A stretch of 64,000 nt of DNA from Callorhinchus milii. Taxonomy: Eukaryota. The DNA lies in the NCBI RefSeq assembly GCF_018977255.1, contig NW_024704742.1, positions 115,012,001 through 115,076,000 on the forward strand, read 5' to 3'. Below are positions 38,001 to 41,000 of this stretch, in pieces. Numbering within the stretch: the first letter of the stretch is position 1; the number at the start of each line of letters is the position of its first letter. The notes under the pieces were generated by a model. The model searched no databases. It was not told where the DNA came from and saw nothing but the letters and a program-made list of their open reading frames with translations. A program made the position numbers and the translations under genes.

Positions 38001-41000
38001 TTTTTTTTGAAAATCTGAGAAGGTATAGATTGGTTATAATGGTGGTGAAGGAGAGAATTATTAAAAACCATAAACATAAATTTTGTAAGCAAATATGTTG
38101 TCAGAGCAATTAACTTGACTGTCCCACTGCATTAAATACTCACTTTCCCACACGCTCTACAGTGATGTCTCCGTCTTGTGAAAGTGAATCTAGCTTGGCA
38201 TTTTGTGCAGTTTGGAGCTTTGGAATCAGGTATCCATTGTGGTTGGCTCTGGCCCAGTGCTGCTGCTTCCCTCATCAACTGTTCTGGTAAACACATTGTT
38301 TCTGCTGCATTTCCCTCACAATCGTCATTTGTTATGCAATCATAAGAAGGTCCAAACACTTGAGTCTCATCTTCTGTAATAATGCTGAAGCTGCAAGTGG
38401 GACTCAAAATTGAAGGGCTTTGGACTACATCAGCAACAGCACCTTTTGTGTCAATATACAGCTTTGAGTTGTTTGAAACATCCTCAGCATTGGTGGTACC
38501 TGGATCACTGAGTTCTGTAGTTGGCGTGATTCTGGGTGAGACATTCAGACGTTGTTTGGGTCTAGCGCCTCCAAAATTAACTTGCTTGTGAACTGGGCTA
38601 TAGTCGGCCACTTGACCAGAGTCACTTGAGGACAATTTCTGATTGTTTATATTCCTGGCTGCCACATTAGCTGTAGATGCCCCAGACACTGTATCATTTA
38701 CAGCAGGGCTTATCACACCATTTTCTGCTGGAGATAAAGTATTCCCAATATCTAATGCCAATCTCCCTTTTTCATGTTCAGCTGATTTAGGAGCAGTCTC
38801 TACCTGGGGATGCAGACTTATACAACTCGAATCAGTGGTTTTAGGAAGACTGAAAGAAACACCTGGCTCAAGTGAACCACTTCGGCCTAAGTTTAGCTCT
38901 AAAAAGCCATTAACTGAAGGCTCTACCGCAGACTCATTCATATCACTTGCTCCATTAAGAATGCATCAAGCTCGGAATCACTAACCATATCGGTTATATC
39001 ACCAAGCCCATCTTTAAGGATGTTATTAAGTGAAAAGTCAATTGGAAAATCTTCGTGATTAGTTAAAGCAGGAGTCGTCATGGTCTCCACGTCACCTGTG
39101 TCAGTCAATATTTCCTCAAATGGATTAATTGGCATGTTTACAACATCATCATCACCTGAATAATTTTGAGTTCTTTCGTGCTGTTCTCCCTCTGTGTCAC
39201 AAAATGCTTCTGCCCTTTCCTCGGGCTTCTCATCACTCTCCAAACCTATACTCTCCTCAGGAGAGATATCTCCAGTGTGCACTAGATCACAATCGATATC
39301 ATCCATAAATGGCAAATCTCGATCCTGCGACTCGGAGCTCAAGTGAACAGCTTTCCCATTCACTGTGCACACATTTGTACCATTGTCCACTATTTCAATT
39401 ACTTCCTTTTGAGGTGGGTAAAGCTGTGAATCCTGCTCTGGAACTAAACAATTTCGTGAATAATGGGCTTCAGTGGATTTGGTAGAATTATTCACGCAAA
39501 CTTCTGTTTTTTTATGGTCTTTTGTTAATCCAGCATTGCACGTATATCTTACTTTTAAAAGTTCTTTTTCAACATGTAACCTTGGATCAATCTCCTCGGG
39601 CTCACTGGCTGTAGCAGCGGTCGTGTTGCTCAACTCTGTTCCCGTGGCTGCGTTGGCCCAACTGCAATCCTCCAAGCTCTCGCTTTGGTCGGTGCTGTCA
39701 TCATCTTCAGTCGAGCCTGTAGCTACAAAATTGTTCTCTTTGGTTAACTCTGAGACAGTTGACAACTCTTTAGTACAGTCAGGCTCAGTCAACTGCTCCC
39801 CAAAATGTCCCCCTACGTTTTCAGGCCCCTCCCCCTCTTGAGGCCCAGTTTCCTTGAATGCATTCTCCTGCTGGAAACCATTAGCACATTCAGTGTCTCT
39901 TGTTCTAGCATTAACATTTTGTACTTGCTGCGGATCAAGCTCTGTCCCATTTGGAAATGATATATCCAGCTCCAACAGGCTCGTAATTCCCAAACTCCCT
40001 CCTGCAGAACATTCCAATCCAAGGTCACCAACAGGAACTGGTGGTGAGGTCCGATCAAAGTCGATCAACAGTGAACCAGTGGATTGGTTCTCAATGGGCT
40101 TAACATCCGGTTCCATGTCAGCCTCATGGCTGTGTGTTTCATGGGTTACACTTTCAGTGTCACTGATTAGGTCACAGAGGGATCCATTGCCTCTGCCGTG
40201 ACTCAACTCATTTGGATCAATGGAAGCTCTTCCGTCAACAGTAGACAACAGGTCCAATCCTGTCAAAGGCTTTTCTGACTGTGCCAATGCTGCAGTCTCC
40301 CAATGGTCACATAGTGACAATGAATCTGATCCACGTTGAGTATCAGAGGAGTGGACGCTGATTGTTGGCTGTGCAGTGGCTTCTGAAAGGTCTGTAAGGG
40401 TTTTGGAAGTTGAATGAAGAGATGAACAGTCCAAAGATATACGCCCTCCTGCATTTGTCTTACAGAAATCATTTTCATCTAAAAAAAAAGGAATTCCGTA
40501 AGTTTGTAAAAATCCAAGCCTTCAAAGTATATTCAACTTTTATAGCTATTCTCTGATAAGAAGAAATGAGGATCCTTTAACAAATTAAAAGTAACAACTG
40601 CACTGACTGAGCAAACTGAAGAAATGTTCATTTGGGCATTTTATTTTTATATGACTATTTAACAAAAAACAGAACATCAATAGATGAACTGACTTTATAG
40701 AAAAATATGCATTGTTATTAGGTAATGTGTACACTTGACAAAGCACTAAAGTTTTTCAATGGAATTGTAGTTAATTAAAAATGCTATGACACAAAAAAAT
40801 TAGAAGATGTGTATTGAAGCAATTCAGACATAATAGGTCACCAATTTTGGCTTGTCTAATAAAAACCTTTGAAAAACAGATATTCAGCCACTCATTAATA
40901 AAAATGACATGTTTAGCTCTTCTGATTCAGATGGTAAAAGCACTGAGTAGTGTGGCTTCTTTATCCCATTGGTCAAGTAAACCCCACTCTTAAGTCAATT

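What the first reader, a model, noticed from the sequence alone, without database searches (positions are those of the whole stretch)
38925..38960. ZFYVE16 large exon is one base short: two ORFs joined by an ATGA stop/start overlap
Seen: the minus strand reads ATG GAG CAA GTG ATA TGA; the downstream FYVE-encoding frame begins at the overlapping ATG (38941). The exon is 2335 nt, but phase-1 entry and phase-0 exit need 2336. Adding one A (CAAGT to CAAAGT) gives [12 protein letters not shown] and a 1544-aa protein. All other 16 exons are intact. Inference: most likely a consensus indel. If real, it is a loss-of-function allele or a split gene in which an acidic N-terminal chain and a FYVE/SBD/C-terminal chain are made by termination-reinitiation or -1 frameshifting.
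Basis: partly seen in the sequence, partly recalled or inferred. Interest (0 to 1): 0.7.

Follow-up and report, generated by a model that had tools for sequence, protein, structure and literature searches.

The report
Assembly typo in elephant-shark endofin gene
The apparent break in the elephant shark's endofin (ZFYVE16) gene is almost certainly one letter dropped during genome assembly, because an RNA assembly and other database versions of this species' protein read straight through it, so it is an ordinary sequencing artefact and not a split or recoded gene.

Summary
In detail: coding exon 2 (40478-38144, minus strand) is 2335 nt, one base short, and reads ATG GAG CAA GTG ATA TGA, with the FYVE frame opening at the overlapping ATG (38941). 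The gene is Callorhinchus milii ZFYVE16/endofin; the other 16 coding exons are intact.

The break is not the species' normal sequence. A spliced contig from run X1 carries the extra base at this site. Of 8 same-species database proteins, 6 read through as ...EQSDMNE..., one is RefSeq's 'LOW QUALITY' model patched at this codon, and one does not reach the site. Genomic contigs of X2 and X5 are also longer than the window, but their inserted base is not the one X1 shows and its place was not printed.

Recoding has no support: no slippery heptamer, no structure (z -0.24), the Met is absent in 21 of 21 orthologues, and 11% of simulated deletions also end at an ATGA.

Verdict: consensus deletion error (~0.9), perhaps at a heterozygous A/G wobble base; a real heterozygous null allele (~0.08) is not excluded. 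Low interest.

The parts
38946..38949 (-). Site of the missing base: third position of the Gln534 codon or the AA run before Ser535
   Evidence: X1 contig has T put in behind 38946 on +, depth 89.8 of 89.8; A or G fits the database peptide; RefSeq P0023 is patched at the same codon
38938..38941 (-). ATGA: Met537 codon plus the A of Asn538, read as TGA only in the shifted frame
   Evidence: Met not conserved in 21 of 21 other-species proteins
38144..40478 (-). ZFYVE16 coding exon 2 (2335 nt as assembled; 2336 needed): acidic N-terminal region and first half of the FYVE finger
   Evidence: Pfam FYVE E 2.4e-11 at its 3' end; both junctions in X1
41932..42001 (-). Coding exon 1 (start codon at 42001; the exon begins at 42039 in the X1 contig)
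36955..37054 (-). Coding exon 3, second half of FYVE
29588..29770 (-). Coding exon 4, SARA Smad-binding domain (183 nt, skipped in frame in P0001, P0027, P0028)
22124..25718 (-). Coding exons 5-8 (25718-25552, 24888-24642, 23154-23032, 22279-22124), intact
   Evidence: exact match to P0025, AG/GT ends
13867..21172 (-). Coding exons 9-17 (21172-20948, 20776-20694, 19620-19516, 18355-18205, 18125-18045, 17292-17130, 16982-16877, 15497-15321, 14028-13867 with stop), SARA_C domain, intact
   Evidence: Pfam SARA_C E 3.8e-162 on P0025

Best explanation
The gene is an ordinary intact ZFYVE16/endofin, spliced from 17 coding exons into a 1544-aa protein (acidic N-terminal region, FYVE, Smad-binding domain, SARA_C). 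The assembled sequence lost one base at the Gln534/Ser535 codons in consensus calling. The shifted frame then meets its first stop in the ATG-A of Met537-Asn538, which only looks like a stop/start overlap. Shown: the species' transcript and proteins read through. Inferred: the base was lost in assembly. More weakly inferred: the site is a heterozygous A/G wobble position, where long-read consensus drops the ambiguous base and short-read polishing cannot choose between two insertions.
For: (1) X1 spliced contig: one inserted base at this site, whole depth (89.8 of 89.8), one other difference in the 2338 bases laid. (2) 6 of 8 same-species cluster members read ...EQSDMNE...; P0025 equals the window at all other 1543 residues; P0027 differs at 5 residues, two of which match differences seen in X1/X9, so it is another haplotype and also intact. 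(3) The one member with a defect, P0023, is RefSeq's 'LOW QUALITY PROTEIN', patched by skipping two bases at this codon; Gnomon gives that label to models with frameshifting indels (10.1101/2021.07.16.452324, passages). (4) P0023's contig is 139,202,109 bases and the longest scaffold of the published PacBio-HiC assembly is 139.2 Mb; that assembly used RS-II reads, FALCON, Quiver and Pilon, and its authors state they used DNA of one individual for all their publications (PMC8302630 supplements). So the same animal very probably gave the intact earlier model P0025 (that the .1 and Ensembl models rest on the earlier 454 assembly is inferred). (5) Genomic-looking contigs are longer than the window: X2 record 10 has 1190 letters over 1189 bases with one gap and no other difference; X5 record 20 has 3254 over 3252 with two gaps. 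(6) All 21 other-species proteins run through the site in one frame, none with X.
Against: X2 and X5 cover the site (depth 7.94 and 9.55) yet show 0 in the row for X1's inserted base; the rows holding their gaps were among 3 not printed, so their place and letter are not shown. X9 has no listed contig over the site. All four runs are contigs, which drop rare variants, so absence of a deletion allele is not shown. The published assembly was polished with ~100x Illumina reads, which should fix a plain homozygous error, so something at this site (heterozygosity) is needed. Raw reads of the assembled animal were not seen.
Confidence: 0.9

Rival explanations
1. The deletion is a real, rare heterozygous null allele of the assembled animal; one assembly took the short haplotype, the other the intact one. 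Its mRNA would stop at codon 537 and be degraded by nonsense-mediated decay; any truncated protein would lack FYVE and miss the endosome.
For: Survival of the indel through short-read polishing. The stop lies 794 nt before the end of the exon with 15 junctions downstream, a typical NMD target by established rules, so RNA contigs would show only the intact allele. Human frameshift variants upstream of or in FYVE exist and mislocalise the protein (PMC4566084, passages).
Against: None of the three runs that cover the site lists a contig that matches the window's length across it (table 8; only the longest records were printed). Frameshift errors are a common defect of CLR-based assemblies. The X2/X5 result points to a second full-length allele, which would explain a consensus drop without a deletion allele.
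Confidence: 0.08
2. The deletion is common or fixed and the gene is expressed by recoding: a -1 ribosomal frameshift within 38965-38941, or termination at TGA with reinitiation at the overlapping ATG, giving a 536-aa acidic chain and a 1008-aa FYVE/SBD/SARA_C chain.
For: The ATGA overlap exists and the downstream ORF holds all three folded domains; that ATG has G at -3.
Against: The expressed spliced contig has the full-length site. No X XXY YYZ heptamer in 39040-38880; the only in-frame one in the exon is at 39559, far outside the stretch (38965 downward) where the target frame is open. Downstream RNA folds no better than shuffles (z -0.24, 78 of 200). Met537 is in 0 of 21 other-species proteins at that column. 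ATGA overlaps follow 10.6% of simulated deletions. Reinitiation after a 536-codon ORF is not expected in eukaryotes without a dedicated upstream motif (own knowledge; such a motif was not searched for).
Confidence: 0.01
3. The DNA is short but the RNA gains an A (transcriptional slippage or insertional editing), which would reconcile X1 (RNA-like, extra base) with the zero that X2 and X5 show in that row.
For: X1 shows the insertion; X2 and X5 show 0 in that row while covering the site.
Against: X2 record 10 and X5 record 20 are themselves longer than the window; genome-based models of the species read through; the run is only AA, far too short for known slippage (own knowledge); the contig shows the base at full depth.
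Confidence: 0.01

Closest known systems
ZFYVE16 / endofin of Callorhinchus milii (P0025: XP_007897966.1, UniRef100_A0A4W3HS28)
   Same: Identical at all 1543 residues outside the break; FYVE 771-834, SARA 849-887, SARA_C 1167-1519
   Different: The window lacks one base at codons 534/535
RefSeq 'LOW QUALITY PROTEIN' XP_007897966.2 (P0023), a Gnomon-corrected frameshift model
   Same: Break at the same codon; 1543 aa, Ser535 missing, equal to skipping two bases at 38946-38944
   Different: None in the defect; NCBI patched by removing two bases, whereas X1 shows that one base is missing
Residual indel errors in PacBio CLR-based assemblies (described in 10.1101/2021.07.16.452324)
   Same: One-base indel in a conserved coding exon, contradicted by transcript data, labelled low quality
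   Different: Not in a long homopolymer (run of two); a heterozygous wobble base is the suspected cause, not shown
Programmed -1 frameshifting (e.g. PEG10, retroviral gag-pol) and AUGA termination-reinitiation (e.g. caliciviruses); both recalled
   Same: Two overlapping frames with an ATGA junction
   Different: No slippery heptamer, no stimulatory structure, no conservation, and the transcript is uninterrupted

Membership tests
ZFYVE16/endofin | FYVE finger, SARA Smad-binding domain and SARA_C domain in one ~1500-aa chain | tested here: met
   Pfam on P0025; gene model equals P0025
ZFYVE16/endofin | Best hits are proteins named ZFYVE16 | tested here: met
   21 of 22 hits named ZFYVE16 or ZFYVE16-like; the top hit is named 'FYVE domain-containing' and its cluster holds the RefSeq ZFYVE16 records
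Assembly consensus indel | Independent sequence data of the species carry the missing base | tested here: met
   X1 contig; 6 of 8 same-species proteins
Assembly consensus indel | Genomic data of other animals carry a base at this exact site | tested here: inconclusive
   X2 and X5 contigs are longer than the window, but the place and letter were not printed and differ from X1's row
Assembly consensus indel | Raw reads of the assembled individual lack the short allele | not testable with these tools
   Only contigs were offered; one read-laying run
Programmed -1 ribosomal frameshift | In-frame X XXY YYZ heptamer where both frames are open | tested here: not met
Programmed -1 ribosomal frameshift | Stable structure a few bases downstream | tested here: not met
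   z -0.24; pseudoknots not modelled
Programmed -1 ribosomal frameshift | Frame break present in mRNA and conserved in relatives | tested here: not met
Termination-reinitiation (AUGA) | Overlapping stop/start | tested here: met
   Only in the window's short form; arises after 10.6% of simulated deletions
Termination-reinitiation (AUGA) | Conserved downstream start codon | tested here: not met
   Met at that column in 0 of 21; 12 of 21 have some Met within the next 15 residues, at other columns
Termination-reinitiation (AUGA) | Upstream 18S rRNA-pairing motif (TURBS) | not tested
   No rRNA sequence fetched

The most novel reading that the evidence does not exclude
The short allele is real and segregates in elephant sharks, and its mRNA escapes decay and reinitiates at the overlapping ATG, making an N-terminally truncated 1008-aa endofin that keeps FYVE, the Smad-binding domain and SARA_C: a natural stop/start-overlap rescue of a frameshift allele in a vertebrate gene.
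Probability: 0.01. Interest if true: 0.65.

Novelty: not a real feature. Interest (0 to 1): 0.04.

Why it matters
As biology it does not: endofin is intact in this species. Practically, the current RefSeq protein (P0023) is wrong by one residue (Ser535 missing), and the case warns that one-base breaks with an 'ATGA overlap' in this genome should be checked against transcripts first, since about one in ten random deletions in this gene would produce such an overlap. If the short allele were real and translated by reinitiation it would be a rare cellular example of stop/start coupling, but nothing here supports that.

Tried and rejected
No whole genome is held for this window, so a second copy or alternate haplotig could not be sought. 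No run was on record as RNA; X1 and X9 are treated as RNA because their contigs skip both or one intron. Only 4 of the 24 listed runs (16 holders) were laid. X9 has no listed contig between 38869 and 39000: uninformative. Rows for the X2 and X5 gaps were cut from the output and the call could not be repeated. Alternative acceptors that would restore the frame were listed and rejected because X1 splices at 40478. A compensating +1 elsewhere in the X2 contig: only 30 of 1188 positions (38938-38967) would leave the exon open, so any other place would mean two separate frameshifts. Slippery site and RNA structure: not found. One test (listing compatible insertions) had an offset error and printed nothing; it was redone. 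Earlier scan notes: none near, 8 shown of 81 in the genome and none on this subject, none by words. One literature search on ZFYVE16/endofin with knockout/frameshift (listing only) showed no title on recoding; this is not a thorough search. Supplements of the bioRxiv paper were not open and file 4 of PMC8302630 was not searched; neither is expected to bear on the site.

Full report
1. Observation. On the minus strand the window reads ATG GAG CAA GTG ATA TGA at 38955-38938, and the ATG at 38941 overlaps the TGA. The upstream frame is open from 40521 to this stop; the downstream frame is open from 38965 to past the donor and ends in the first half of a FYVE finger (Pfam E 2.4e-11). The exon is 40478-38144, 2335 nt. 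A search over AG/GT ends near the matched blocks gave one gene model: 17 coding exons, 4635 nt and 1544 aa with an unknown base at the break, equal to database protein P0025 at every residue but the masked one. Exon 2 enters in phase 1 and exon 3 in phase 0, so 2336 nt are needed. As assembled, translation stops at codon 537, 794 nt before the exon end, with 15 junctions downstream; the ORF from 38941 is 1008 aa.

2. Identity. The upstream ORF is 100% identical over 513 aa to a Callorhinchus milii protein, and 18 further cartilaginous-fish and 3 turtle ZFYVE16 proteins follow (22 hits among 8000 scored candidates). P0025 carries FYVE, SARA and SARA_C domains: endofin.

3. Same-species proteins. 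The cluster has 8 members. Six (P0001, P0025-P0029) read ...FLMEQSDMNES... with no X; P0024 (693 aa) does not reach the site; P0023 (XP_007897966.2, 'LOW QUALITY PROTEIN', 1543 aa) differs from P0025 only by lacking Ser535, which equals skipping two bases at this codon of the window. So NCBI's pipeline had already met and patched this break. Gnomon labels models 'low quality' when an indel must be corrected, and CLR-based assemblies are prone to this (10.1101/2021.07.16.452324, passages read). The six are not six independent witnesses: most are probably models on one earlier assembly. P0027 differs from P0025 at five residues, two of which (G465D, E499K) match differences in laid runs, so it is a second haplotype (that it is cDNA-derived is recalled).

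4. Assemblies. P0023 lies on a contig of 139,202,109 bases; the published PacBio-HiC assembly has a longest scaffold of 139.2 Mb and was built from RS-II reads with FALCON, Quiver and Pilon (PMC8302630: section 6, supplement 1 part 1 and passages read). [quoted passage not shown] The earlier version of the same RefSeq record (P0025, no low-quality label) is intact; that it rests on the earlier 454 assembly is my inference. One animal thus seems to have given both an intact and a broken model.

5. Sequencing runs. Of 24 runs listed, 16 hold the stretch; four, from three studies, were laid, all as contigs. X1: one 2791-letter contig joins exons 1, 2 and 3 at the predicted junctions and has T put in behind 38946 (+ strand) at its whole depth (89.8 of 89.8), which is the extra A on the coding strand. 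X2 and X5 cover introns as well, so they look genomic. Both cover the site and both show 0 for X1's insertion, which is a result against the simple reading. But X2 record 10 has 1190 letters over 1189 window bases (38832-40020) with one gap and no other difference, and X5 record 20 has 3254 letters over 3252 bases with two gaps; X2 record 9 has a further +1 in 37835-38785, which may be X5's second gap. The rows for these gaps were among three not printed. A G between 38948 and 38947 gives the same Gln-Ser as an A, and only 30 of 1188 positions in the X2 record would leave the exon open. The simplest reading is that X2 and X5 carry a second full-length allele at the wobble base. This is inferred, not seen. 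X9 has no listed contig over the site.

6. Recoding tests. No slippery heptamer lies in 39040-38880; the only in-frame one in the exon is at 39559, where the target frame is closed. The 86 nt from 38945 fold at -20.8 kcal/mol against -20.1 for shuffles (z -0.24). The Met used for 'reinitiation' is present at that column in 0 of 21 other-species proteins, although 12 of 21 have a Met somewhere in the next 15 residues; the conserved motif before it (72% mean identity over 511-534) runs on in frame in all. Of 4541 simulated one-base deletions in this CDS, 481 (10.6%) end at an ATGA overlap, 73 (1.6%) within three codons. The overlap is a by-product of Met-Asn codons read in the shifted frame.

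7. Mechanism and odds. Most likely (0.9): intact gene, base lost in consensus calling. Since ~100x short-read polishing should repair a plain error, heterozygosity at the site is probable; an A/G wobble polymorphism would give two competing insertions and explain both the drop and the X2/X5 pattern (inferred). Next (0.08): a real heterozygous deletion, silent in RNA through NMD; human endofin frameshifts that remove FYVE mislocalise the protein (PMC4566084, passages read), so such an allele would be a null. Recoding or RNA-level insertion: about 0.01 each.

8. Novelty. Not a real feature; the defect is already flagged in RefSeq. The scan's index showed nothing near this place or by words, and none of the 8 notes shown from this genome concerned it. 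Interest 0.04.

Noticed in passing
window 29588-29770 (-): The 183-nt exon that encodes the SARA Smad-binding domain is skipped in frame in P0001, P0027 and P0028, and many shorter shark and ray isoforms lack PF11409: a shared isoform without the Smad-binding domain, already in annotations.
   Followed up: partly
window 49056-49526 (-): 157-aa open frame upstream of ZFYVE16 with a CC149 hit below the cut-off (E 1.3e-5, 25.1 of 30 bits, profile end) and CCDC149-like atlas neighbours at 0.87, a lead only: possibly the last exon of a CCDC149-like gene.
   Followed up: partly
window 4241-4561 (-): Exon with a Menorin domain (E 2.6e-22); by recall this fits FAM151B, the neighbour of ZFYVE16 in human.
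   Followed up: partly
window 41748-41753: X5 record 21 has 188 letters where the window has 6, in the intron after coding exon 1 (table 8): a ~180-base indel polymorphism or sequence missing from the window.
   Followed up: no
window 38144-40478: The X5 contig differs from the window at 9 listed places in exon 2, 6 of them changing a residue (e.g. W297C, F721Y): the acidic region is polymorphic.
   Followed up: partly
window beyond 42039 (-): The X1 contig has 247 letters before 42039 that lie outside the stretch laid: one or more non-coding first exons, perhaps at the GC-rich stretch near 45100-45700.
   Followed up: no
window 7391-7907, 43673-44857, 45126-45700: Long GC-rich low-complexity tandem arrays giving many spurious long ORFs.
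   Followed up: no
window 47657-48010 (-): Reverse-transcriptase fragment (RVT_1, E 1.1e-9), a LINE-type relic; high-copy repeats also lie in the introns flanking exon 2.
   Followed up: no
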